The position numbers and the translations under genes were made by a program. This document shows positions 21,370-54,547 of a stretch of DNA of 64,000 bases, in pieces (position 1 is the first letter of the stretch; every line of letters begins with the position of its first letter). The notes under the pieces were generated by a model, which did not search any database, was not told the DNA's origin, and worked only from the letters and a program-made list of their open reading frames with translations. Source of the DNA: Squalus acanthias (taxonomy: Eukaryota); the NCBI GenBank assembly GCA_030390025.1, contig CM059432.1:75394001-75458000 (forward strand), in the 5' to 3' direction.

Positions 21370-22590
21370 ATGGGTGCCGTTTATACTGTCTCACCTTGGT
21401 CCTCAGAATCGGACCATGATGAGCCCCAACACCAGCAGGATCAGGTACACCAGCAGCACCAACAACAACACCACCAACCTTCTCCTCAACCACCTGATGC
21501 TGCACAGGACAGAAGGCATCAGTGCAGGGCTGCACCGCACAGGAGGTGGTACCCCCAACACAGGGTATACAGGCAGAGGATGAGCTTCCTCAACATGACT
21601 GAGCAGCAGTGCCAAAGGAGGCTCAGGCTATCGTGCCAGGTCGTCGCAGACATTTGCACGTTGCTGAAGCAAGAGCTGCAGCCCAGAGGAGCAGGTGGAC
21701 ACGCCTCACCAGTGGTTGTCAAAGTCACCAGCGCCCTCAACTTCTCCGCCTCAGGCTCCTTCCAGGGATCTGCAGCAGACATTTGCAGTATCTCGCAGTT
21801 GGCCGCCCACAGATACATCACACAGGTCACCGATGCCCTATTTGACAAGTCAGCCAATTAAATTAACTTTGCCACTGATGAAGCCAGTGTTACTGAGCGG
21901 GCGCTCGGCTTTGCCACTCTGGCTGGCTTCCCATGGGTGCAGGGCTGCACACATGTGGCCATCAGGGCACCCCATCATAACCCATAATTCTTTGTGAACC
22001 ACAAGGGCTTCCACTCCCTCAATGTGCAGCTGGTCTGCAACCATAGGAAGATCATCATGCATGTGTGCGCCAAATTCCCTGGCAGCTGCCATGACTCTTT
22101 CGTCCTTTGCCAGTCCACCCTCCCTCAGCTCTTCACTCCTCCAAACAGACTTTCCAGCTGGCTACTTGGAGACAAGGGCTATCCACTGAAGTCGTGACAT
22201 CCTTGAGGAGGCCAAGTACTGAGACCCAGGAGAGATATAGTGAAAGCCACATTTCCACCAGATGTGTCATAGAGCAGACAATAGGCATGCTCAAAATGCG
22301 CTTCAGATGCCTTGACAGATCTGGAGGAGCCCTTAAGTATACTCCAGCCAGGGTCTCCAGAATCGTTGTGGTCTGCTGCGCCCTTCATAACATAGTGCAG
22401 CAGCGAGGATTAGCGCTGCATGAGGAGCAAGGCACTGAGCGCACAGCCTCTTTAGAGGAGGAGGAGCATCAGCTGGAAGATGAAGAGGAGCAGGAGCTGG
22501 AGGAACCTGCAGGCCAGATCCCACCAGCACCCAAGCACATTGATGCCCGGGAGACCAGGGATGGCCTCATCATGGCCAGATTTACTCAAC
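21370..22590 (+). pseudogene. Harbinger transposase pseudogene
   Basis: ORFs 21370-21861, 21994-22197 and 22107-22676 align piecewise with the intact 37792-39051 protein; stop codon and frameshifts. Confidence 0.92.
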
Positions 22591-22864
22591 TTTACGCAGG
22601 ACACCCATATGGCTGCCACATGCTGCGCCAGGTTGGCACCAGCCCACAGCAACACCATAAAGGATCCCTACGATAACCAAGCCATTCCTTTCACACTGAC
22701 CACCATTGCTGGAGGTATCGTTATGTCTCACCATTCACTGCAACTCACCATGCTACTTCCAAAGATGCACATAAACTTGTCCAAGTGGTGAAAATAACGA
22801 TTTTTATGGTTGAAATCACACTATTGGAAACTTGACATTAACATTGAATAAAACAGCCAAGTGG

Positions 22865-25152: not shown

Positions 25153-26306
25153 GTTTCCAAGTGTTTGGAACAATGAAAACCTCTAGTGTGCTACCTGCAC
25201 ACTCCTAGATGAACCTTCAAATGCAGAGTGGCCATGGCTCCTTTAAATATCCCAGCTGAAAACGCATCATCGATGATGTCATCAGACCCACACCTTTTAA
25301 TAAGGCCGGGTAACGTGCAGGGCGGGCTTAATAGGCCCCATTAGCGCAAAGTCCATTTCTGCACCGAGATGGAAGCAAGAACGGGGTCGTGACCTGCCAC
25401 GGCGACCACCCACATCGGACCCGCCCAGGTAAAGAAAATTCCGGCCCGCGAGTTGTTATGATCTGGAATACACTGCCTGGAAGGGTGATGGGAGCAGATT
25501 TAATAGTAACTTTCAAAAGTGAATTGGATAAACACTTGAAGAGGAAAAGTTGGCAGAGATATGGGGAAAAAGCAGGGATGTGCAGATAATTGGATAGCTA
25601 TTTCAATGAGCTGGCACAGGCACAATGAGCCAAATGGCCTCCTTCTATGCTGTATAATGCTATGATTCTATCTATTCTATTTTCCTAACCCTTTTCTTCC
25701 TAAATAAATTAATTTTAAGTTCTTCTAATTAGCTTATTTTCTGTCCCTTGGTTCCGCCATTCATTTGGGAAGTGGGAGCGTTTTATTTAAAAAATGGATT
25801 TGCATTAGCTGCAATTAGCCAATTGAAAGTCTAGACTTGGAAGGTTGACCTAGTCACATCATAAATCTGCATAGGTCCATCTCTAATACATTTTCACGTA
25901 TCAAATCAGAAATAAGGCTGCTAGACTATACCCATTGGTATACGCCCCCTCCCCCCCACCACGCCACAGGATTTACTTGTGGGCCGGTTCAGTGTTCAAG
26001 CTGGCAGATTGTAAGAAGAGCTCGACTGGTGAGCTACATTGGGACACCCGATTGACATTCAGGAGGTCTAAACAAATCTCTAAAGGACCTATACTTTTAT
26101 CGAAGCTTACACAGAAATCTGACAGTTTAATGTCTGACTTTGTACTGTTGATAAACTTGTAGCATGTAACTGGGGTGTCAGGGCCCGAATTGACACTGAA
26201 GTGAAGTAGATTGATACTACCTTCTGCAGGGAGTCTCAATGCTCTTTGCTCTGGTGCTAGGCTAGGCCCTGACTCCAGATTCAGGCTGCAATTACACTAT
26301 AAAGCG

Positions 26307-28370
26307 GGCCAACCATGGCTAACAAAAGAAATTAAGGATAGTATTATATCCAAAGAGGAGTCAGATAAAGTTGCCAGAAAAAGTAGCAAGCCTGAGGATT
26401 GGGACCAGTTTAGAGTTCAGCAAAAAAGGACCAAGAGATTGATTAAGAGGGGAAAAATAGAATATGAGAGTAAACTTGCAAGGACCATAAAAGCGGATTG
26501 TAAAAGCTTCTATAAGTATGTAAAAAGAAAAAGATTACTGATGACAAATGTAGGTCCCTTACAGTCAGAAACAGGAGAATTTATAATGGGAAACAAGGAA
26601 ATGGCAGTGCAATTAAACAAATACTTTGGTTCTGTCTTCACGGAAGAGGAGACAAATAACTTCCAAGAAATGCTAGGGAACCAAGGGTCTAGTAAGAAGG
26701 AGGAATTAAAGGAAATTAGTATTAGTAAAAAAATAGTGCTGGAGAAATTAATGGGACTGAAACCCGATAAATCCCCAGGGCCTGATAATCTGCATCCTAG
26801 AGTACTAAAAGAGGTAGCCATGGAAATAGTGGATACATTGGTTGTCATCTTCCAAAATTCTATAGATTATGGAACAGTTCCTGCAGATTGGAGGGTGGCA
26901 AATGTAACCCCACTATTTAAAAAAGGAGGGAGAGAGAAAACAGGGAACTACAGACTGGTTAGCCTAACATCAGTAGTAGGGAAAATGCTAGAGTCTATTA
27001 TAAAGGATGTGATAACAGGACACTTAGAAAATATCAACGGGATTAGACAAAGTCAACATGGATTTATGAAAGGGAAATCGTGTTTGAAAAACCTACTGGA
27101 GTTTTTTGAGGATGTAACTGGTAGAATAGATAAGGGAGAACCAGTGGATGTGGTGTATTTGGATTTTCAGAAGGCCTTTGATAAAGTCCCACATAAGAGG
27201 TTAGTGTGCAAAATTAAAGCACATGGGATTGGGGGTAATATACTGGCATGGATTGAAAATTAGTTAACAGACAGGAAACAGAGAGTAGGAATAAATGGGT
27301 CTTTTTTGGGGTAGCAGGCGGTGACCAGTGGGGTACCGCAGGGATCAGTGCTTAGGCCCCAGCTATTCACAACATATATCAATGATTTGGATGAGGGAAC
27401 CAAATGTAATATTTCCAAGTTTGCTGATGACACAAAACTAGGTGGGATTGTGAGTTGTGAGGAGGATGCAAAGAGGCTTCAAGGTGATTTAGACAAGTTG
27501 AGTGAGTGGGCAAATACATGGCAGATGCAGTATAACGTGGATAACTGTGAAGTTATCCACTTCTGTAGGAAAAACAGAAAGGCAGAGTATTATTTAAATT
27601 GTGATAGATTGGGAAATGTTGATGTACAGAGGGACCTGGGTGTCCTTGTACACCAGTCACTGAAAGCAAACATGCAGGTGCAGCAAGCAGTTAGGAAGGC
27701 AAATGGTATGTTGGCCTTCATTGCAATAGGATTTGAGTACAGGAGCAAGGATGTCTTACTATAGTTATACAGGGCCTTTGTGAGACCACACCTGGAGTAC
27801 TGTGCGCAGTTTTGGTCTCCTTACCCAAGAAAGGATATACTTGCCATAGAGGGCATGCAGCGAAGGTGCACTAGACTGATTCCTGGGATGGCAGGACTGT
27901 CGTATGAGGAGAGATTGGGTTGACTAGGCCTGTATTCACTAGAGTTTAGAAGAATGAGAGGGGATCTCATTGAAACATATAAAATTCTGACAAGGCTAGA
28001 CAGATTGGATGCAGGGAGGATGTTTCCCCTGGCTGGGGGGTCTAGAACGAGGGGTCACAGTCTCAGGATACGGGGTAGCACATTTAGGACTGAGATGAGG
28101 AGAAATTTCTTCACTCCGAGGGTGGTGAACCTGTGGAATTCTCTACCACAGAAGGCTGTGGCGGCCAAGTCGCTGAATATATTTAAGAAGGAGATAGATA
28201 GATTTTTAGATACAAAAGACATCAAGGTGTATGGGGAGAGAGCGGGAATATGGTATTGAGATAGAGGATCAGCCATGATCATATTGAATGGCGGAGCAGG
28301 CTCGAAGGGCCGAATGACCTACTCCTGCTCTTATTTTTTCTATGTTTCTATGTTTCTTTCTATGTTTCTA
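26307..28370 (+). mobile_element. CR1 LINE, 5'-truncated
   Basis: ORF2 RT (KSPGPD, LDFQKAFDKV, GVPQGSVL, KFADDTK) with a few stops; (TTTCTATG)n tail. Confidence 0.95.
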
Positions 28371-30744: not shown

Positions 30745-31937
30745 CATCCTCCTCCAACACCTCTCCACCATCGTCCAGCTGGGTGGGACTGCACTTGCCT
30801 GGTTCCATTCTTATCTATTTAATCATAGCCAGAGAATCACCTGCAATGGCTTCTCTTCCCGCTCCCACATCATTACCTCTGGTGTCCCCCAAGGATCTAT
30901 CCTTGGCCCCCTCTTATTTCTCATCTATATGCTGCTCTTGGCAGCATCATCCAAAAACACAGTGTCAGTTTCCACATGTATGCTGATGACACCCAGCTCT
31001 ACCTCACTACCACTTCTCTCTACCACTCCTTGGTCTCTAAATTGTCACACTGCTTGTCTGACATCCAGTTCTGGATGAGCAGAAATTTTCTCCAATTAAA
31101 TATTGGGAAGACCGAAGCTATTGTTTTCGGTCGCTGCCACAAACTCCGTTCCCTAGCCACTGACTCCTTCCCTCTCCCTAACATCTGTCTGAGGCTGAAC
31201 CACACTGTTCACAACATTGGTGTCTTATTTGACCCTGAAATGTGTTTCCAACCACATATCTGTGGAATAACCAAGGCCGCCTATTTCCACCTCCGTAACA
31301 TCGCCCGTCTCCGCCCTTGCCTCAGCTCATCTGCTGCTGAAACCCTCATCCATGCCTTTGTTACCTCTAGACTTGACTATTCCAATGCACTCCTGGCTGG
31401 CCTCCCACGTTCTACCCTACGTAAACTTGAGGTCATCCAAAACTCGGCTGCCCATGCCCTAACTCGCACCAAGTCCTATTCACCCATCACCTCTGTGCTC
31501 GCTGACCTACATTGGCTCCCAGTTAAGCAACGCCTCGATTTCCAAACCCCTCTATGGCCTCACCCTTCCCTATCTCTGTAATCTCCTCCAGCCCCACAAC
31601 CCCCCCCACCCCCACCGAGATATCTGCGCTCTAATAATTCTGCACTCGAGCATCCATGATTATAATCACTCAACCATAGGTGGCCGTGCCATCTGTTGCC
31701 TAGGCCCTAAGCTCTGGAATTCCCTCCCTAAACCTCTCCGCCTCTCTACCTCTCATTCCTTCTTTAAGACACTCCTTAAAACCTACCTCTTTGACCAAGC
31801 TTTTGGTCATCTGCCCTAATTTCTTGTTATGTGGCTCGGTGTCAAATTTGTTGCCTTATAATACTCATGTGAAGCGCCTTGTGTCGTTTTACTATGTTAA
31901 AGGCACTCTATAAATAAAAGTTATTTTTGTTGTTGTT
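30745..31937 (+). mobile_element. L2 LINE 3' fragment nested in CR1
   Basis: [19 protein letters not shown] and SRLDYSNALL motifs; (GTT)n tail; CR1 resumes at 31938. Confidence 0.92.
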
Positions 31938-37183: not shown

Positions 37184-37791
37184 ATAATACATGGTGCAGA
37201 GCGCTAAAAGGAAAAGATGAAAAGAATCGTACTGATGGGTGTTACTGACCACAAAGCTAATGGGCTCGAATTTCATCGGGCCGTTGAGGCGGGATTGGAG
37301 GCGTGTGGGTGGTTAAAATTGCAAAAACTGGCGGGCGGGCCCAACCCCGCCTCCATCCCGCCTCCAAGCAATTTTCATTAAATCGTGTCTACTGGTCCCG
37401 TCTCCGTCCCGCCTCCAAGAGGCGGGATAGGCCGTTAAGGCCCTTAACAAGCACTAAATTGCCTTTATAATGCCATTTTGATAGGCCTTTGTGATTTTAA
37501 CCCTTTTCTCACATGAAGCATGCCTGTTCTGAAACACGACGGTGAAACCTGGTGGTAGCATAATTGGATTGCTGACTATCAGCTGCAGCTCAACCATTAA
37601 ATAGGAGATTTGATCAGCCATCATTTGCAGGTGGCAGGACTTTGCTGTCTCAGGTCTGGGGGAATTTTTAGAAGGCATAACCACAGCTGTGGAAGTTTGG
37701 AGCCTGACACCCATCTCCAGTGTGACCTCCTGGGAAACCCCTCTCGCCACCTTGACTGAGCGCTTCCTCAACTGAGGCATATACCAGAAGC

Positions 37792-39051
37792 ATGGGAGCC
37801 ATTTATTTCCTTCCCTTCTGGACATCAGATGAGGACGAAGACCAGCCATGGCACCAGCAGAACCATGAACAACAGCAGCACCAACAGCAGCAGCACCAAC
37901 AGCAGCAGCAACAACAGGAGCGCCAAGCTGCTGCTCACCTACCTGAAGCTGCACAGGCCAGAAGGGGCCAGCGCATGGAAGCCCGTCGGCGCAGGAGATA
38001 CCCCCCAAACAGGGTCTACAGACACAGGGTCAGCTACCTCAACATGTCTGAGCAGCAGTGCCAAAGGCGGCTCCGACTTTCGCGAGAGGTAGTGGGTGAC
38101 ATCTGCGCAATGCTGCAACAAGACCTGGAGCCCAGAGGACCAGGTGGACAACCCTTACCAGTGGCCGTCAAAGTCACCACCGCACTCAACTTTTTTGCCT
38201 CAGGCTCATTCCAGGGATCAGCAGCAGACATCAGCGGCATCTCCCAGGCGGCCGCACACACTTGCATCACGCAGGTAACCGATGCCCTCTTTGCCATCGC
38301 GCACAATCACATCCATTTCACCAAGGATCAAGCAAGTGACACGGCGCGTGCGGTTGGATTAGCTAATCTGGCAGGCTTTCCAAGGGTGCAGGGCGTCGTT
38401 GACTGCACACATGTGGCCCTTAAGGCACCCCATCGCAATCCAGGTATTTTTGTCAACCGCAAGGGCTTCCACTCCCTTAACGTTCAGCTGGTGTGTGACC
38501 ACAAGAAGGAAATTTTGCATGTTTGTGCCAAGTACCCTGGCAGTTGCCATGACTCCTTCATACTGCGCCAGTCTAGTGTGCCTCCGCTATTCAGTCCGCC
38601 AGACCAACTTAACAGATGGCTACTTGGAGACAAGGGCTATCCCCTGAAGACGTGGCTAATGACGCCGTTGAGGAGCCCATCCAACGAAGCTGAGGAGAGC
38701 TACAACTCCAGCCACATTTCCACCAGAGCCATAATCGAGCAAACCATTGGTTTGCTGAAGATGCGCTTCAGATGCTTGGATAGATCAGGTGGAGCCCTGC
38801 AGTACTCAGCAGCCAGGGTCTCCAGAATCGTCGTGGTTTGCTGTGCACTTCACAACATGGCACAGCGTCGTGGCTTGCAGATTCCTGAGGACCAAGTGGC
38901 TCGTCACATATCCTCCTCAGATGAGGAGGAGGAGGAGGAGGAGAGCAAAAACGAACATCTTGCAGAGGCCCATCAACTAGCGGCAGCAGTACGCGAGAAC
39001 ATTGCTGCCCGGGATGCAAGGAACGCACTCATCTTGGCCAGATTTGCTTAG
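37792..39051 (+). CDS. Harbinger (HARBI1-like) DDE transposase, intact, 419 aa
   Basis: Uninterrupted ATG-to-TAG ORF; HTH region ([15 protein letters not shown]); catalytic motifs VDCTH, HDS, GDKGY and IEQTIG; N-terminal polyQ and C-terminal polyE. Confidence 0.93.
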
Positions 39052-42259: not shown

Positions 42260-44061
42260 ATCAAAGATAGAGGCTTATAATGTTGCCAAAAAGAGTCGTA
42301 AGCCTGAGGATTGGGAGGATTTTAGAATTCAGCAAAGCAGGACCAAGAAATTGATAAAGAAACAGAAAATAGAATATGAGAGTAAACTAGCAAAAGACAT
42401 AAAAACAGACTGTAAAAGCTTCTATAGGTATGTAAAAAGGAAAAGATTAGCGAAAGTAAATGTGGGTCCCTTACAGGCTGAGACAGGAGAAATTATAATG
42501 GGGAATAAGGAAATGGCAGAGAAATTAAACAAATACTTTGGGCTAGATTTTACCTGCCGAGACGAGTTGGGAGCGGGACTGCTGCCTTCTGGGTTCTATT
42601 CCTGCCCCCAGCGACGTCCGATGCACAGATGCTATTTTCCCCTGATTGGCCTTGTTAAGCCCACCCTGTGGGCTTGCCGGCCAATTAAAGAAAAGCCGGT
42701 GTCAGATGACGTCAGTTGATGACGCTTCATCTGCCGGTTTTCTTATAAAGGGAAATGATCCATTTCTTTTTGACAGATGATTTGACAGTGTTTGACAGCA
42801 TTGAGGTGCTGTCAAACACTGACAATCACTGTACAAAGGTGAGCCCTTGCACCCAGGCTCTCCAATGACTCTCTCCTTAGGATAAAACAGATGACAGCTG
42901 CAGGTGAGGGTACAGAAGCGATCTGTCACTTCTCCCAATGAGGTGCGGCCACACAAACACTTCAAAGCTTGTCACCTACAGAAAAATCTAAACACATTAA
43001 AAATGACTTTCCCAACATGTCCTTACCTCTGATACTCACCAGTGTCCCATTGCATCCTTCACATCACTTCTGCAGCTGTCATCTAGACACAAACATTACA
43101 ACAGACCCACATCACACCTCACTTACCCTGGCGGGGTTCCCCGATGTCGGGAAGCCCGCAGCAGTAGTCTCAAAATGGGAAAAAGCCTCTTAACTGCCTG
43201 TTAACAGGCAGTTAAGTGGCTATAATCCTCTTCCTGCCGCTAGAAGTCGGGTCCCTGCGCAAATCGGGTACCCGACTCCAGGGAAGATTGGTTGGAGGCG
43301 GGTTGGGAGCGGGTTTGGGACCCGCTCCCATTCTTTTTGATTTTCCTAGCAGTCCCGCCTCCAGACCCGCCTCCTCAGGGCTGGTAAAATCCAGCCCTTT
43401 GTGTCTGTCTTCATGGCAGAAGACGCAAAAAACTTTCCGGAAATAGTGGAGAACCAAGGCTCCAGCGAGAATGAGGAACTGAAAGAAATTAGTATTAGTA
43501 AAAAAATAGTACTGGAGAAATTAATGGGACTGAAAGCCAATAAATCCCCTGGACCTGATGGCCTACATCCTAGGGTTGTGAAAGAGGTGGCTATAGAGAT
43601 AGTGGATGCATTGGTTGTCATCTTCCAAAATTCCATAGATTCTAGAACAGCTCCTGCAGATTGGAAGGTAGCAAATGTAACCCCACTATTTAAGAAAGGA
43701 GGGAGAGAGAAAACGGGGAACTACAGACCAGTTAGCCTGACATCAGTAGTAGGGAAAATGCTAGAATCTATTATTAAGGACGTGGTAACAGGGCACTTAG
43801 AAAATAATAATAGGATTGGGTAGAGTCAACACGGATTTATGAAAGGGAAATTGTGTTTGACAAATCTGTTAGAGTTTTTTGAGGTTGTAACTAACAGAAT
43901 AGATAAGGGGGAACCAGTGGATGTGGCATGTTTGGATTTTCAGAAGGCATTCGATAAGGTGCCACACAAGAGGTTATTAAACAAAATTAGGGCTCATGGG
44001 ATTGGGGGTAATATACTAGCATGGATTGAGGATTGGTTAACGGACAGAAAACAGAAGAGTA
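42260..44061 (+). mobile_element. CR1 ORF2 internal fragment
   Basis: Homologous to 26350-27290; interrupted at AAATACTTT|GTGTCTGTC. Confidence 0.9.
42540..43397. mobile_element. Non-autonomous Harbinger derivative nested in CR1
   Basis: TIRs GGGCTAGATTTTACC / GGTAAAATCCAGCCC (14 of 15 match); TSD TTT; left part similar to 53956-54300. Confidence 0.9.
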
Positions 44062-46960: not shown

Positions 46961-47154
46961 TGTCGTAAGAATGAGCCTTACGCGTGGTGAACTTAAAGTA
47001 AGCTTTAATCAACTAAAAAGGTGCTACATACAAAAGAGGTCTTACTCTATGCCTCTCCAGGATCCAACTGATCAGTCCCGTATTTATCCTGGACTAATCA
47101 CAGGAAGTGATGCAATAAAGTTCGAGTCACAGGAAGCTGTATTGTGTTACCACA
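46961..47154 (-). repeat. 3' LTR of the Gypsy element
   Basis: Identical by eye to 51208-51401. Confidence 0.97.
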
Positions 47155-47166
47155 TTCTCCCCCCCC
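47155..47166 (-). promoter_or_regulatory. Polypurine tract
   Basis: Sense GGGGGGGGAGAA immediately before the 3' LTR. Confidence 0.9.
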
Positions 47167-47172
47167 AAAAGA

Positions 47173-50100
47173 TTAGGAGGCCGGGATGCTCCCTCCATTT
47201 CGTAGCCGCCGGACGAGGGAGAGCCGCACCCGTTTGGGTTCTCGTAGCGGTAGAGGGCCCCTAGCCCGTTTACCCGCCGCGGGCCGTGGACCAGAGTCCG
47301 AGTGATCCAGCCCGCTCTGTGAGGGGTCAGGACGATCCTGACTGTGTACTGGTGCCCGAACGGGTGTCGGGCAGGGCTGTGGCAGATCCGTTTCTGAGCG
47401 TATGGTACGGGGTGGATCGTGGCTGCGCGTGCGAGCCCCGACGGGCTCATAGTCAGTCTGCCCCAGGTCGGCACGCTGGAGTGAGGTACCAGCCGGCGTC
47501 AGATCCAGATCGTGATGAGAGGCACCTGGCGAGCCCAGAGATGTGCCTGGTACAATATCATCCCCTGGTGTCCCTCTATGTTTCGGCGGGCAGGGAGCCA
47601 GATCCCGCAATGACACAGTAGATTCCCGACCGTCAGGATACCGAATATAGGCGTAGGTAGGGTTGACGTCAGTGAGCTCAACCTCATCTACCAGGGGGTC
47701 ATTCTTAGACGCCCGGACATATCTTCGGAGTAGCACTGGTCCCGGTGCAGTCAGCCACGACGGGAGAGATATCCCATAGGATGAGCGACGCTGAAATCGG
47801 AAGAACCGTTCATGAGGCGTCGTATTTGTGGCGGTCGAAAGGAGGGACCGTGTGGAGTGTAATGCGTCTGGAAGTACTGCTTCCCATTGCTGGTTGGGTA
47901 GGCCCCGAGATCTCAAAGCCAGACGTACCGCATTCCAGATGATAGCGTTAAAACGCTCGACTTGCCCATTCCCGACCGGATGATAAGGCGTCGTTCTGCT
48001 GGCAGCAATACCCCGTTCCGAGAGATAGGCCTTGAGTTCTCCTGACATAAAAGAAGGGCCCCGATCCGAATGAACATAGGATGCCATGCCACAGAAAGCA
48101 AATACCTGCTCAAGGCAGCTGATAACCGTGGTCGTCAGCATATTGGGGCAGGGAAAGGCAAACGGAAAACGGGAATACTCATCGACCATGGTCAATAGAT
48201 AAGTGTTGCGAGTTGAAGAGGGCAACGGCCCCTTAAAATCAATGCTAAGCCGTTGCATTGGCTGGGTCGCATGTATGAGTATACCACCCGAGGGGCGGAA
48301 AAACTGAGGTTTCAATTCCGCACAGACTCTGCAGTCCGAGCACATCTTCTTTACATCCCCGGTAGAGAATGGGAGATTTCGGGACCGCACGAAGTGTAGC
48401 ATGCGAGTAACGCCCGGATGACACAACCCATCATGGATGTCTACGAGCGTAGAGGGTGCCATGGCGGAGCAGAATGCTCGTGTGAGGGTATCTGGAGCCA
48501 CATTCTCCTTGCCAGGTCGATAGTGGATGGTGTAACCAAAAGAGGCCAATTCCAGCCGCCAAAGCTGGATTTTATTATTTTTAATTTTGGTCTGTTTTCG
48601 ATTATCGAGCATGAAGGCGACCGATCGCTGGTCCGTGATTAAGGTAAAGTGCTGGCGAGCTAGGAGATGAGTCCACTTCCGTACTGCCTCTATGATGGCT
48701 GTAGCTTCTTTCTCGACTGGAGGATAATGTAGCTCAGCCCCTTGAAAAGTCCTGGACAAAAATGCCACCGGACGACCTTCCTGATTCAGAGTGGCCAAGA
48801 TCGCCACCTCCGAGGCATCACACTCAACAACAAAAGGAAGACTCTCATCGATGGAGTGAAGAGCCGCTTTCTCCAACTGTTTTTTCAGGAGGTTAAAGGC
48901 TGCAACAGCCGCTGTGTCTAGTGGGAATGTGCTGGCCTTCAGTAGAGGTTGGATTCGGTCCGAGAAGTTAGGAATCCATTTAGCATAGTATGCAAACAGG
49001 CCGAGGGCCCGGCGCAAGGAGGCCGGATTCTTAGGTGGCGGGAGCTCTTGGAGTGGGCGAAGCCTTTCAGGGTCAGGTTTAATGATGCCATTGCCCACAC
49101 AATAGCCAAGGATGTTGATGGTTGGTTGTGACTCAATGGATTTAGCCGCATTTAATGTCAAATTACGGTGCTGGAGTGCATCCCAAAATCGTTGGAGATT
49201 GGCGTCATGTTCCCGCTGATTGCGACCTGCGACAGTAATATTGTCCAGATAAGGAAACGTATCCTTCAAGTCTTCCTGTTTGACCAGGTCATCCATTGCT
49301 CGCTGGAAGACAGCCACTCCATTAGTGACCCCAAAGGGGAGGCGACGAAATTGATACAGCCGTCCATTGGCTTCAAAGGCCGTATACTGCTTGTCTGAGA
49401 CCTTCAAGGGTACCTGATGATAGGCACTTTTCAGATCATATGTTGAGAACACCGTGTACTCAGCCAGTTTATTAACCATATCATCGATGCGCGGCAATGG
49501 GTATGCGTCCAAGTCCGTATATTGATTGATGGTCTGTGAATAGTCAATGCACAGCCGTTTCTTGTGAGGTTGTAGAGGGTTCTTAACAATAACGACCTGG
49601 GCGCGCCATGGCGACGAACAAGGCTCGATGATATCCTCTGCTAAAAGCCGAGAAATCTCAGCCGCAATAAAAGACTGGTCTTCCTGACTGAAACGTCGTG
49701 ACTTTGTTATAATCGGTTTGCATCGAGGAGGGATACTGGTAAACAGTGAGGGTTCATCCAGTGAAGCTGCTGACAATGCACAGAACGGTAATCGAGGTCG
49801 TATATTAGAAATAGTGAGTTCAGGTTTGGATCCGCCGAACTCAATGGTGAGCTTCTTATGCTGCTTTTGAAAATCCAGTCCTAAGATAAGATCACTACAT
49901 AAGTCCTTGAGCACCGAAAGCCGGGTGGAGGGATACCGGTGACCATTAAGTGTTATTTCAACCATACAAAAGCCAGAAATTCTGGTATTAAGTGATGACT
50001 GAGCCATCGCAATTGCCTGGTCCGATGGGAAAACATGTAGCTTTAACTCTGCAACAATCTGTTCCCTAATGAAACTATCAGTGCTACCTGAGTCAATTAA

Positions 50101-51129
50101 GGCATCTAAAGTATGTCCATTAATTGATGCTTTTGTAGCTGCATGGAATAGGTTCTGAGGACAAGCAGCTGTAATTGGTGTCGTTGCACAAAGAGTGGCT
50201 GAAACTCTAGGTGTGTTTCTTCGAGAGAAAACCCGAGAGGAAGCACGATAGATTTTAGCCGGAACATCTTGATAGGCCCTTACCGGGGCAGTTCGGTAGG
50301 ACTTAGCTTGATAAGCCCTCGTAGAGGCTCTTGATAGGCAAACCTTTGCAAAATGACCCTTTTTGTTGCAATGACTGCAAAACGCATTGCGAGCAGGGCA
50401 GAATTTCCGAGGGTGAAACTCATCACCACAAAAGAAGCATTTCTTAGATTGCCAAGAGGCTGCCACAGTGGGGTCATCATCCTCTTCATCAGTGAAGTCA
50501 TCAGATTGATCGTCAGGGATAAAGTCCTCCCTAATAGAGTTCACCTGTGGCCTCTTAAATTGCCTGACTGTAGTTAAGGCAGCAGACCGAGGTCTGGGCA
50601 CTGTATAAAGGTCTGTATTTCTTTTTGCCAGATCTAGAGAGCAAGCCATGTCATAAGCTCTCTGAAGCTCAAGTGTCTTACTTTCCAGTAGACGCTGGCA
50701 TATAAATGGGGAGGCAAGCCCGCAGATGAAAGCATCACGGATCATTTCTTCACGGTACAGCTCAGCTGAGGCCGCCTGAAAGTTACAGTCCATACTAAGT
50801 CTGCGAAGCTCTTGGAGGAATTTATCAATGGATTCCTCCGGCCCTTGTTGGGCTGTAGCTAGTAGATGTCTGGCATAGACCTCATTCGGTGTCTTAGTAT
50901 ATAGTCTTTTAAGCGTCCGAATTGCCTCCTCGTAACTGCCCCATTCCTCAACATACTGAAATACATTCGGAGTGACACAGTTGATGAGTATCCGCAACTT
51001 TGTGTCATCATCAGCCTTGCAATATTCGAGAAAATTGTCAAACGTGCGATACCAGTGATTCCACACCTTACCGGCTGCTGGGGTGTTTGGGTCCAAGTCA
51101 AGACGCGATGGTTTAAGGATGTTTTCCAT
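47173..51129 (-). CDS. Gag-Pol polyprotein, 1318 aa
   Basis: Double zinc knuckle CFFCG..H..C / CSHCNKKGH..C; protease LIDSGS; RT LPFG..YLDNI; RNase H ECDAS..EKEA..TDQ; integrase HHCC and D-D-E (IDFKG, SDRG, VERFN); no env or chromodomain recognised. Confidence 0.96.
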   Translation of the reverse strand: MENILKPSRLDLDPNTPAAGKVWNHWYRTFDNFLEYCKADDDTKLRILINCVTPNVFQYVEEWGSYEEAIRTLKRLYTKTPNEVYARHLLATAQQGPEESIDKFLQELRRLSMDCNFQAASAELYREEMIRDAFICGLASPFICQRLLESKTLELQRAYDMACSLDLAKRNTDLYTVPRPRSAALTTVRQFKRPQVNSIREDFIPDDQSDDFTDEEDDDPTVAASWQSKKCFFCGDEFHPRKFCPARNAFCSHCNKKGHFAKVCLSRASTRAYQAKSYRTAPVRAYQDVPAKIYRASSRVFSRRNTPRVSATLCATTPITAACPQNLFHAATKASINGHTLDALIDSGSTDSFIREQIVAELKLHVFPSDQAIAMAQSSLNTRISGFCMVEITLNGHRYPSTRLSVLKDLCSDLILGLDFQKQHKKLTIEFGGSKPELTISNIRPRLPFCALSAASLDEPSLFTSIPPRCKPIITKSRRFSQEDQSFIAAEISRLLAEDIIEPCSSPWRAQVVIVKNPLQPHKKRLCIDYSQTINQYTDLDAYPLPRIDDMVNKLAEYTVFSTYDLKSAYHQVPLKVSDKQYTAFEANGRLYQFRRLPFGVTNGVAVFQRAMDDLVKQEDLKDTFPYLDNITVAGRNQREHDANLQRFWDALQHRNLTLNAAKSIESQPTINILGYCVGNGIIKPDPERLRPLQELPPPKNPASLRRALGLFAYYAKWIPNFSDRIQPLLKASTFPLDTAAVAAFNLLKKQLEKAALHSIDESLPFVVECDASEVAILATLNQEGRPVAFLSRTFQGAELHYPPVEKEATAIIEAVRKWTHLLARQHFTLITDQRSVAFMLDNRKQTKIKNNKIQLWRLELASFGYTIHYRPGKENVAPDTLTRAFCSAMAPSTLVDIHDGLCHPGVTRMLHFVRSRNLPFSTGDVKKMCSDCRVCAELKPQFFRPSGGILIHATQPMQRLSIDFKGPLPSSTRNTYLLTMVDEYSRFPFAFPCPNMLTTTVISCLEQVFAFCGMASYVHSDRGPSFMSGELKAYLSERGIAASRTTPYHPVGNGQVERFNAIIWNAVRLALRSRGLPNQQWEAVLPDALHSTRSLLSTATNTTPHERFFRFQRRSSYGISLPSWLTAPGPVLLRRYVRASKNDPLVDEVELTDVNPTYAYIRYPDGRESTVSLRDLAPCPPKHRGTPGDDIVPGTSLGSPGASHHDLDLTPAGTSLQRADLGQTDYEPVGARTRSHDPPRTIRSETDLPQPCPTPVRAPVHSQDRPDPSQSGLDHSDSGPRPAAGKRARGPLPLREPKRVRLSLVRRLRNGGSIPAS

Positions 51130-51195
51130 GATGGGTGATTCCCTGGATCCTTAGTTTCGAGTTCGTCCAAAAAGTTTGAGTGCGAAGTTTTTCAA

Positions 51196-51206
51196 AGTTG
51201 ATTAAA
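51196..51206 (-). promoter_or_regulatory. Putative self-priming primer-binding site
   Basis: Sense TTTAATCAACT, 1 nt after the 5' LTR, is the exact complement of LTR 51251-51261 (sense AGTTGATTAAA); no TGG tRNA-type PBS. Confidence 0.7.
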
Positions 51207-51207
51207 T

Positions 51208-51401
51208 TGTCGTAAGAATGAGCCTTACGCGTGGTGAACTTAAAGTAAGCTTTAATCAACTAAAAAGGTGCTACATACAAAAGAGGTCTTACTCTATGCC
51301 TCTCCAGGATCCAACTGATCAGTCCCGTATTTATCCTGGACTAATCACAGGAAGTGATGCAATAAAGTTCGAGTCACAGGAAGCTGTATTGTGTTACCAC
51401 A
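51208..51401 (-). repeat. 5' LTR of the Gypsy element
   Basis: Sense TGTGGTAAC...CTTACGACA; contains ATTAAA. Confidence 0.97.
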
Positions 51402-52549
51402 CTCTCCAAGCTCACCTTGTCCACGAGACCCACTTCCTGCTCCCTCGACCCTATTCCCACCAAACTGCTGACCACCCAACTTCCTTTTCTGGCTCCCATG
51501 TTAGCTGACATTATTATTGGTTCTCTTTCCTCAGGTACTGTCCCCCTTTCCCTCAAATCTGCCATCAACACCCCTCTTCTCAAAAAAACAACCCTTGACC
51601 CCTCCGTCCTTGCAAACTACCGCCCCATCTCCAACCTCCCTTTCCTCTACAAAGTCCTTGGACATGTTATCGCCACCCAAATCTGCGCCCATCTTTCCCG
51701 CAATTCCATGTTTGAATCCCTCCAATCAGGTTTCCGCCCTTACCACCATATCAAAATGGCTCTCATCAAAGTCACAAATTACATCCTTTGTGACTATGAC
51801 AAAGGTAAACAATCCCTCCTCATCCTTCTTGACTTGGCTGCAGCCTTTGACATGGTTGACCACTCCATCCTTCCCCAATACCTCTCCACCGTTGTCCAGC
51901 TGGGTGGGACTGCACTCGCCTGATTCCATTCTTATCTATCTAATCGTAGCCAGAGAATTACCTGCAACAGCTTCTCTTCCCACCCCCGCATTGATACCTC
52001 TGGTGTCCCCCAAGGATCTATCCTTGGCCCCCTCCTATTTCTCATCTACATGTTGCCCCTTGGCGACATCATCCAAAAACACAGCGTCAGTTTCCACATG
52101 TACGCTGATGACACCTAGCTCTACCTCACTACCACTGCTCTTGACCCTGCACTGTCTCTAAATTGTTAGACTGCTTGTCCGACATCCAGTTCTGGATGAG
52201 CAGAAATTTTCTCCAAATAAATATTGGGAAGACCGAAGCCATTGTTTTCAGTTCCCGCCACAAACTCCGTTCCCTCCTAGCCACTGACTCCATCCCTCTC
52301 CCTAACATCTGTCTGAGGCTGAACCACACTGCTCGCAACCTTGGTGTAATATTAGACCCTGAAATGAGCTTCTGACCACATATCCGCAGCATAACTAAGA
52401 TCACCTATTTCCACCTCCATAACATCACCCTGTCTCCGCCCTTGTTTCAGCTCATCCGCTGCTGAAATCCTCATCCATGCCTTTGTTGATTTATGCATCT
52501 CGGTGTCAAATTGTTTGTCTTACAATACTCCTGTGAAGCGCCTTGGGAC

Positions 52550-53789: not shown

Positions 53790-54547
53790 ATTGATATATA
53801 CTTAGAAAAATAATGTATACATCTTTTTGAAATGAAAAAATTACAAATTAAAATGCTTACTGCAGTGGTTGAAATTTATGGTACCTCAGCAGCAGCTAAA
53901 TTTGTAATTGGCCCTATTTTAGTTCAGCCCAAGTATAAAATGCATTAAGGAGGAGGGGCTGGATTTTTCCACCCATGGTGGGTCCGGGGCAGGCGACGTC
54001 AGTGGCGTGTGGGGACCTCGCATCTGTGTCGATCCCGGCCTCCAACAAGATATTCCGATGATGGGGCTTGTTAAGCCCGCTCTGCGAGGTTCCCAGCCAA
54101 TTAATAGGAAGCAGATCTGATGATATAATTTGATGTCGCGTCATCAGCCGGTTTTCTTAAAGGGGCCATGTCCAAATTTATTTTGACAGTTGTGCTGTCA
54201 GTGTTCTACACCATTGAGGTGCTGCAAACACTGACGAGCACTGCACAGAGCTGCACGGCTGCACCCAGGCTCTCCCATGACTCCCTCCATATGTTTATGG
54301 AGGGAGTCACAGCACGCAGGGAGGTTCTCTTCCCTTCCAATGAGCAGAAGAGACCTCCTCAGGACACTAACGCAGCCTGGTTGCACATTGCACAGGAGGA
54401 CACAAGCAGGGATGTCGTTAGGAGGAACAGGCTGCAGTGGCGCAAACCTTTCAATGATCTCAGTGGATCATGAAACGTTACTGCAAAGCCACACTCAACC
54501 TTATCCCGCTGTGCCACTCATCACATCCTTATCACTTTGCCTTTCCT

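What the first reader, a model, noticed from the sequence alone, without database searches (positions are those of the whole stretch)
51196..51261. Gypsy element with no tRNA PBS but an exact 11-nt self-primer (Tf1-like self-priming in a non-chromovirus element)
Seen: on the sense (minus) strand the 5' LTR is followed by A-TTTAATCAACT, not the TGG of a tRNA primer site. These 11 nt are the perfect complement of LTR positions 51261-51251 (AGTTGATTAAA), and the pairing stops at exactly 11 bp. That LTR segment begins at the A of TTAGTT, an initiator-like motif, and contains the ATTAAA polyA signal. The intervening sequence forms a CGTAAG/CTTACG hairpin. Known: S. pombe Tf1 primes reverse transcription by annealing the first 11 nt of its RNA to the PBS, and this mechanism is associated with the Tf1/sushi chromovirus group. 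Inference: transcription starts at about 51261 and the element self-primes, although it has a Mag-like double-CCHC gag, a 5-bp TSD and no chromodomain, so this could be an independent origin. An alternative role is masking the 5' polyA signal.
Basis: partly seen in the sequence, partly recalled or inferred. Interest (0 to 1): 0.82.

Follow-up and report, generated by a model that had tools for sequence, protein, structure and literature searches.

The report
Self-priming Gypsy retrotransposons outside chromoviruses
This young, high-copy jumping gene and its distant relatives lack the usual landing site for a host tRNA and instead carry a short sequence that pairs with their own end-repeat, so they probably start copying themselves with a piece of their own RNA, a trick so far tested only in the yeast element Tf1, which belongs to a different branch.

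Summary
A young Ty3/gypsy element (194-bp identical LTRs, 5-bp TSD, one 1,318-aa ORF, about 1,250 junction matches in the genome) has no TGG; its PBS pairs with LTR 51261-51251. The pairing is clade-wide. In 27 related families, 291 of 297 positions 1-11 are Watson-Crick pairs across 20 different 11-mers, starting one base after the LTR's CA; no host tRNA match was found. RT-RH-IN trees place the clade outside chromoviruses (nesting with vertebrate/fungal ones rejected, p=1e-6; not rejected on RT-RH alone), but its sister group is unresolved, so independent origin is likely, not shown. Corrections: 'exactly 11' is this subfamily only (median 13); the CGTAAG hairpin is family-specific; Tf1's three-helix 'pretzel' is absent; a poly(A) hexamer lies in the helix in only 16 of 25 families. 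The start site is unmapped, and a rival initiator sits at 51316. Best reading: Tf1-like self-priming in a non-chromovirus animal clade (0.72). The active RT also has YLDN instead of YxDD. Self-priming is already predicted in other lineages (Tcn1, copia TAR), and this scan reported the same signature on other DNA, including this genome. New variant of a known kind.

The parts
51208..51401 (-). 5' LTR, 194 bp, TG...CA
   Evidence: identical to the 3' LTR
51251..51261 (-). 11-nt LTR segment complementary to the PBS (putative self-primer); contains ATTAAA at 51256-51251
   Evidence: that it is the RNA 5' end is inferred
51196..51206 (-). PBS position, TTTAATCAACT, no TGG
51207..51207 (-). one-base spacer between the LTR's CA and the PBS; unpaired in 27 of 27 families
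51238..51250 (-). small hairpin starting at the first base after the putative primer (RCY...RRGY motif in most relatives; weak statistical support)
51211..51229 (-). CGTAAG/CTTACG hairpin, family-specific
51313..51335 (-). GATAAATA box (51335-51328) and TCAGTT initiator-like motif (A at 51316): rival upstream start
   Evidence: motif consensus recalled
47173..51129 (-). single gag-PR-RT-RH-IN ORF, 1,318 aa, no chromodomain
50338..50439 (-). two CCHC knuckles of Gag (C231-C264)
49240..49251 (-). RT active-site motif YLDN (Asn at the second Asp of YxDD)
47155..47166 (-). polypurine tract abutting the 3' LTR
46961..47154 (-). 3' LTR (second copy of the 11-mer at 47014-47004)
51402..51406 (-). 5-bp target-site duplication GAGAG (other copy 46960-46956)

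Best explanation
The element primes minus-strand DNA synthesis with its own RNA. Transcription starts at or within a few bases of the LTR segment that pairs with the PBS (51261 in this subfamily; 12-16 nt upstream of the helix end in many relatives) [inferred]. The 5' end folds back on the PBS one base past the LTR [pairing shown by covariation]. The RNA is cut just after the ...AAA end of the paired segment, probably by the element's RNase H as in Tf1, and this leaves an A-ending 3'-OH where a tRNA's CCA end would sit [inferred]. The primer is probably copied back into the PBS during plus-strand synthesis, which would keep PBS and LTR changing together [inferred]. Hiding the 5' copy of the poly(A) hexamer is a side effect in some families. 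The clade is not part of the Tf1/sushi chromoviruses and lacks their three-helix leader.
For: 27 families: 291 of 297 Watson-Crick pairs at PBS positions 1-11, 20 distinct 11-mers, TGG in 0 of 27. Positions 5-9 and 11-13 covary with 0 of 2,000 permutations reaching the observed mutual information. A PBS-independent motif puts the partner in the same register in 22 of 27. Own LTR gives 11 or more pairs in 20 of 25 families, a foreign LTR in 2 of 574 pairs with different PBS, shuffles in 0 of 5,000. Three TGG-primed host elements give 4 bp. L033 and L059 are 99% identical in gag yet differ by one compensated pair, present in both LTRs. The LTR-side edge is sharp (0 of 27 paired at the spacer) and the far edge graded (24, 21, 17, 16, 16 of 27 at positions 12-16), as for a fixed cut and a variable start. 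Only 4 main-subfamily copies, against about 1,250, have a non-T at PBS position 12, and 3 of the 4 are the pairing A. No tRNA gene at 6 of 6 genomic sites with the 11-mer before a T-loop motif. Precedent: Tf1 (PMC7175516, passages).
Against: No RNA evidence for the start site or the cut: 0 reads in the one raw RNA run, from another organism. The window LTR has GATAAATA 74 nt and TCAGTT 55 nt upstream, and two related host families have TATAAAT 90-92 nt upstream; no family has a TATA box 18-45 nt upstream of position 11, and only 6 of 27 fit YYANWY there. The two extra helices that Tf1 needs are not seen (4.4 vs 4.5 and 4.0 vs 3.7 bp against shuffles). Four of 27 families have one or two mismatches in the helix, and three loci with no recognisable LTR or PBS (L032, L053, L077; best 4-6 bp) were set aside before counting. 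Permutation tests ignore relatedness among families. The position-12 count rests on four copies that may share descent.
Confidence: 0.72

Rival explanations
1. Self-priming from a longer leader: transcription starts upstream (for example near 51316), the helix forms internally, and a cut at its 3' end releases a longer primer.
For: TCAGTT and GATAAATA upstream in this LTR; TATAAAT in L140 and L141. No TATA box at the canonical distance from position 11 in 27 of 27.
Against: Upstream motifs are not conserved (TCAKTY in 8 of 27 at scattered distances, TATA-like in 5 of 27), and the box-to-initiator spacing here is only about 19 nt. Pairing falls to about chance by position 17. A long primer copied into plus-strand DNA would leave a mismatched 3' end at strand transfer (inference).
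Confidence: 0.13
2. The helix only masks the 5' copy of the poly(A) signal or regulates packaging or translation; the primer is something else.
For: AATAAA or ATTAAA overlaps the helix in 16 of 25 families; the terminal AA is invariant.
Against: In 9 of 25 families no canonical hexamer lies in the helix, and in 3 of these one lies elsewhere in the last 110 nt of the LTR. The helix starts one base after the LTR end (26 of 27 paired at position 1, 0 of 27 at the spacer), which masking does not require. No alternative primer site exists (TGG in 0 of 27).
Confidence: 0.1
3. A host RNA (tRNA half or other small RNA) is the primer, and the LTR complement is incidental or a relic.
For: Half-tRNA priming exists in some copia lineages (PMC6317226, passages). 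The host tRNA set was not searched in full (one search scored 63 genes and their sequences were not compared).
Against: 20 different PBS 11-mers each match their own LTR; no tRNA at the 6 candidate sites.
Confidence: 0.04
4. Chance complementarity in AT-rich sequence.
For: The 11-mer is 82% A+T and the duplex is weak (-9.8 kcal/mol).
Against: 1 of 5,000 shuffles; clade-wide covariation.
Confidence: 0.01

Closest known systems
Tf1/Tf2/Tj1 and the Tf1/sushi group (chromoviruses)
   Same: No tRNA PBS; PBS complementary to an LTR segment; 11 bp in this subfamily, as in Tf1 (PMC7175516; PMC4600332).
   Different: No chromodomain; separate RT-RH-IN clade with 26-30% identity to vertebrate/fungal chromoviruses; no three-helix 'pretzel' (bioRxiv 2022.12.06.519325; tested); helix median 13 bp, up to 18; mechanism untested.
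Tcn1 clade (gypsy) and TAR lineage, Houba/Osr-1 (copia): predicted self-primers in plants
   Same: Self-priming predicted by the same sequence criterion, 10 or more bp starting 0-5 bp after the LTR (PMC6317226, passages); 23 of 27 families here meet it without a mismatch. TAR shows the trait is already predicted outside Tf1/sushi.
   Different: Tcn1 is a chromovirus and TAR is copia; this is a non-chromovirus gypsy clade whose named members are animal proteins.
Mag lineage (A, B, C clades; SURL)
   Same: Double-CCHC Gag, single ORF, short LTRs, 5-bp TSD (Mag features recalled).
   Different: Host elements that I label Mag-like have TGG PBS and form a separate clade at 28-31% identity; a sister position is not rejected (p=0.18).
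Cigr-1 clade (Ciona intestinalis; also molluscs) and unnamed MolGy clades
   Same: From recall, Cigr-1 has a similar size, one ORF of about 1,200 aa, an echinoderm-type Gag and a non-Mag RT. PMC6238403 (passages and supplement search) lists Cigr-1 and 16 MolGy clades.
   Different: Not tested: no reference sequence could be fetched and the original paper is not held. The clade may already have one of these names; that paper does not mention PBS or primer in its main text.

Membership tests
Ty3/gypsy LTR retrotransposon | LTRs TG...CA, TSD, PPT, domain order PR-RT-RH-IN | tested here: met
   best PDB match Ty3 Gag-Pol
Tf1/sushi group | C-terminal integrase chromodomain | tested here: not met
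   no PF00385 or PF24626 in P0001 or in the precomputed domains of the 120 listed homologs
Tf1/sushi group | Pol groups with fungal/vertebrate chromoviruses | tested here: not met
   RT-RH-IN, 41 rows: both clades 100/100, union rejected p-AU 9.7e-7. RT-RH alone, 79 rows, quick tree: not rejected, p=0.20. Tf1 and sushi-ichi themselves were not available; stand-ins were Chromo-bearing proteins of Xenopus, Oryzias, a fungus and one unnamed record.
Tf1/sushi group | PBS complementary to an LTR segment, not to a tRNA | tested here: met
Tf1/sushi group | three-helix 'pretzel' leader | tested here: not met
   no excess pairing of PBS-adjacent sequence with the LTR loop in 27 families
Tf1-type self-priming mechanism | complementary segment is the 5' end of the RNA | tested here: inconclusive
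   0 reads in raw RNA run X15; contigs cannot show starts; indirect signs
Tf1-type self-priming mechanism | RNase H cleavage releases the primer | not testable with these tools
   needs biochemistry
Mag lineage | Pol groups with Mag/SURL-type elements; tRNA PBS | tested here: inconclusive
   separate clade from host TGG-primed elements that I label Mag-like from recall; sister position not rejected, p=0.18; PBS criterion not met
Cigr-1 clade | RT-RH groups with Cigr-1 | not testable with these tools
   no reference sequence; paper not held

The most novel reading that the evidence does not exclude
A widespread, currently active animal Gypsy clade has evolved tRNA-free priming independently of Tf1/sushi, with a simpler single-helix leader. 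Its primer is the capped 5' 11-16 nt of the RNA, often holding the poly(A) hexamer, and is copied back into the PBS so that both evolve in concert. Most of the sampled members do this with an RT whose second catalytic Asp is Asn, a change that blocks Ty1 transposition.
Probability: 0.45. Interest if true: 0.75.

Novelty: new variant of a known kind. Interest (0 to 1): 0.58.

Why it matters
Self-priming has been demonstrated only for Tf1 and is treated as the mark of the Tf1/sushi group, with predictions in Tcn1 and one copia lineage. A second Gypsy lineage that does it without the Tf1 three-helix structure would show which RNA features the reaction really needs and how often tRNA priming has been dropped. 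Such elements would also escape control by tRNA fragments aimed at the PBS (inference), which may bear on the burst of over a thousand near-identical copies here, and annotation tools that look for a tRNA PBS would miss their primer site. The natural YxDN active site gives a direct test of why the second aspartate is needed in Ty1 (PMC2148107, passages).

Tried and rejected
Expression and start site: no RNA holder listed with certainty; raw run X15 gave 0 reads and comes from another organism; X1, X5 and X9 are contigs and show presence only. Viral contigs held no relatives. DUF4939 found no chromovirus in this genome, and nothing rang in the controls either. The tRNA family search scored only 63 genes and was not used for comparison. 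The bacterial promoter scan is irrelevant here and found nothing. The ESM Atlas gave only generic Gag clusters. Two AU tests on the 79-row tree did not finish and were redone on 41 rows. Saci2/lennie was considered and rejected as the clade (4-bp TSD, tRNA PBS; PMC12471100 parts 1-2 of 8 and passages, PMC4558846 passages). Cap copying was looked for by eye as a C after the helix and not seen. The primary Tf1 papers and the Cigr-1 paper are not held. Nine literature searches found no description of self-priming in this clade or of a natural YLDN gypsy RT; Repbase Reports, GyDB and most subscription journals are outside the library, and one supplement of PMC6238403 (a picture PDF) and its pptx could not be read.

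Full report
Observation. On the minus strand the element has identical 194-bp LTRs (51401-51208 and 47154-46961), a GAGAG target duplication, a purine tract abutting the 3' LTR and one ORF of 1,318 aa. Pfam finds protease, RT, RNase H and integrase in gypsy order and no chromodomain. After the LTR's CA come one A and TTTAATCAACT, the exact complement of 51261-51251; position 12 is T opposite T. One of 5,000 dinucleotide shuffles of the LTR gave such a match. The family is young and large: a pattern spanning the LTR end and PBS has 1,251 matches in the genome, of which the 100 listed are nearly identical and one is a 3' LTR matched by chance. A sister subfamily with 400 matches pairs over 12 bp.

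Relatives. I fetched 80 metagenome loci, 9 genome-collection loci and 8 host loci. With the window, 45 of these 98 had a recognisable Gag start and 42 had enough upstream sequence. Three (L032, L053, L077) showed no LTR or PBS context, gave 4-6 bp, and were set aside; the other 39 fell into 25 families by LTR similarity. L049 and L133 were added from their contig ends, giving 27; L046 was not scored. In these 27, PBS positions 1-11 form 291 of 297 Watson-Crick pairs with the LTR, using 20 different 11-mers; none has TGG near the LTR end; 23 have 10 or more uninterrupted pairs, median 13, maximum 18; the partner ends 20-67 nt before the LTR end. The register for positions 1-11 was chosen to maximise pairing, so I checked it two ways. 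A motif that does not use the PBS (AAA followed by RCYW) picks the same single site in 22 of 27. Positions 12-16, not used for the choice, pair in 24, 21, 17, 16 and 16 of 27 against 9-12 under permutation. A PBS reaches 11 pairs with its own LTR in 20 of 25 families, with another family's LTR in 2 of 574 pairs whose PBS differ (both involve L086, whose own PBS is mutated), and in 0 of 5,000 shuffles. Three TGG-primed host elements reach 4. L033 and L059 are 99% identical in gag and differ by one compensated pair. These permutations ignore relatedness, but the set reaches down to L133 at 38% protein identity, which pairs over 15 bp with a very different sequence. Hosts of most loci are unknown; named homologs come from crustaceans, cnidarians, nematodes and a catshark.

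Mechanism. The helix begins one base after the LTR, where a primer's 3' end must lie; the spacer is paired in 0 of 27. The partner ends in AA in all 27 at positions 2-3, so a cut there would leave an A-rich end at the place of a tRNA's terminal A. The far edge is graded and reaches about chance at position 17. That is what a fixed cut with a start site varying between families would give (inference). In Tf1 the first 11 bases pair with the PBS and RNase H cuts between bases 11 and 12 (PMC7175516, passages). The title of a cited paper says the Tf1 primer is not removed (seen only in the reference list of PMC6317226). If that holds here, the PBS is copied from the primer, and a primer longer than 11 nt would often turn PBS position 12 into A. 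Only 4 copies of the main subfamily have a non-T there, 3 of them A and none the transition C. This fits a start at 51261 with rare longer primers, but it rests on an assumption and on four copies. Against a start at 51261: this LTR has GATAAATA 74 nt and TCAGTT 55 nt upstream, two related host families have TATAAAT about 90 nt upstream, no family has a TATA box 18-45 nt before position 11, and the initiator match there is loose (NHAGYY 16 of 27, YYANWY 6 of 27; consensus motifs recalled). Reads gave no test. Tf1 needs two further helices (bioRxiv 2022.12.06.519325, passages); these are absent here. A short hairpin right after the partner is weakly enriched (4.3 vs 3.6 bp, p=0.016). A canonical poly(A) hexamer overlaps the helix in 16 of 25 families, lies only elsewhere in 3 and is absent in 6, so masking is not the general purpose. 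For a host primer, six genomic sites have the 11-mer before a T-loop motif and none is a tRNA gene; the full tRNA set was not compared.

Placement. Named reference elements could not be fetched. Chromoviruses were represented by Chromo-bearing proteins from frogs, fish, a fungus, algae and one unnamed record, and tRNA-primed elements by host copies with TGG, which I call Mag-like from recall. On RT-RH (79 of 117 selected rows, quick tree) the clade has SH-aLRT 100, but its union with fungal/vertebrate chromoviruses was not rejected (p=0.20). On RT-RH-IN (41 of 87 rows with both domains, 622 columns, LG+G4) the clade, the chromoviruses and the Mag-like group are each supported at 99-100; the union with vertebrate/fungal chromoviruses is rejected (p=9.7e-7), while sisterhood with all chromoviruses (p=0.073) or with the Mag-like group (p=0.18) is not. 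P0001 is 26-33% identical to every outside group. So it is not a Tf1/sushi member, and independent origin is likely but not established; the tree is unrooted. The clade may be Cigr-1 or a MolGy clade of PMC6238403 (passages, supplement search); that is a recalled lead, untested.

RT active site. The motif aligning with Ty3's YLDD is YLDN. In alignment A1, 49 of 59 proteins have Asn at this place and 10 have Asp; deep branches mostly have Asp. In Ty1 the same change keeps polymerase activity but abolishes transposition (PMC2148107, passages), yet this family has recently made over a thousand copies. It is not tied to self-pairing, since five YLDD families pair too.

What is known. Self-priming is described for Tf1/sushi and predicted for Tcn1 and the copia TAR lineage (PMC6317226, passages); other non-tRNA sites are noted without a mechanism in Skipper, fungal GalEa and bivalve TRIMs (PMC5006619, PMC5445492, PMC6934838, passages). 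PMC3601003, PMC2774666, PMC5443660 and PMC4600332 (passages) add nothing on this clade. Nine searches found no report for it, within a library that lacks Repbase Reports, GyDB and most subscription papers. This scan's earlier notes report the same signature in gypsy elements of this and other genomes; they are unchecked and were read after my own covariation result.

Verdict. The feature is real and conserved by covariation. It works like Tf1 self-priming with probability about 0.72 for a short primer and 0.85 including a longer leader; it is not a Tf1/sushi element. New variant of a known kind; interest 0.58.

Noticed in passing
window 49240-49251 (-): RT motif is YLDN, with Asn for the second catalytic Asp; shared by 49 of 59 aligned relatives, in a family that is clearly active.
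   Followed up: partly
G000:C1:566509, 570756, 575003: Three LTR-PBS junctions spaced 4,247 bp apart, the unit length of the element: a head-to-tail array sharing LTRs.
   Followed up: no
window 49400-51420: Near-identical sequence (0.48-0.85 of sampled 31-mers) in runs of five coded organisms from six studies; three of the runs were laid and cover the stretch. Recent shared activity in close species, or horizontal transfer.
   Followed up: partly
L131-L139: Contigs filed in bacterial MAGs carry this animal retrotransposon clade, some on contigs of 40-290 kb: probably host contamination in those assemblies.
   Followed up: no
window 51238-51250 (-) and relatives: The bases right after the putative primer are RCY in 23 of 27 families and an RRGY follows 6-24 nt later in 21 of 27: a possible small hairpin or sequence signal at the cut site.
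   Followed up: partly
window 47173-47590 (-): After integrase the ORF has a Pro-rich tail of about 135 aa ending in a basic cluster, where chromoviruses carry a chromodomain; relatives end in a similar RRSxR motif.
   Followed up: no
window 37756-39051 (+) and 22095-22676 (+): DDE_Tnp_4 (PIF/Harbinger-type) transposase frames, the first 431 aa long.
   Followed up: no
window 26205-27263 (+) and 30829-31581 (+): Fragments with RVT_1 matches, probably non-LTR retrotransposon remains.
   Followed up: no
window 42634-42879 and 54050-54291: Diverged direct repeat (74-82% identity, spacing about 11.4 kb) on either side of the element.
   Followed up: no
L140-L145: A second active family of the same clade in this genome (1,315-aa frames), with a different LTR but the same PBS 11-mer and 12-13 bp of pairing.
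   Followed up: yes
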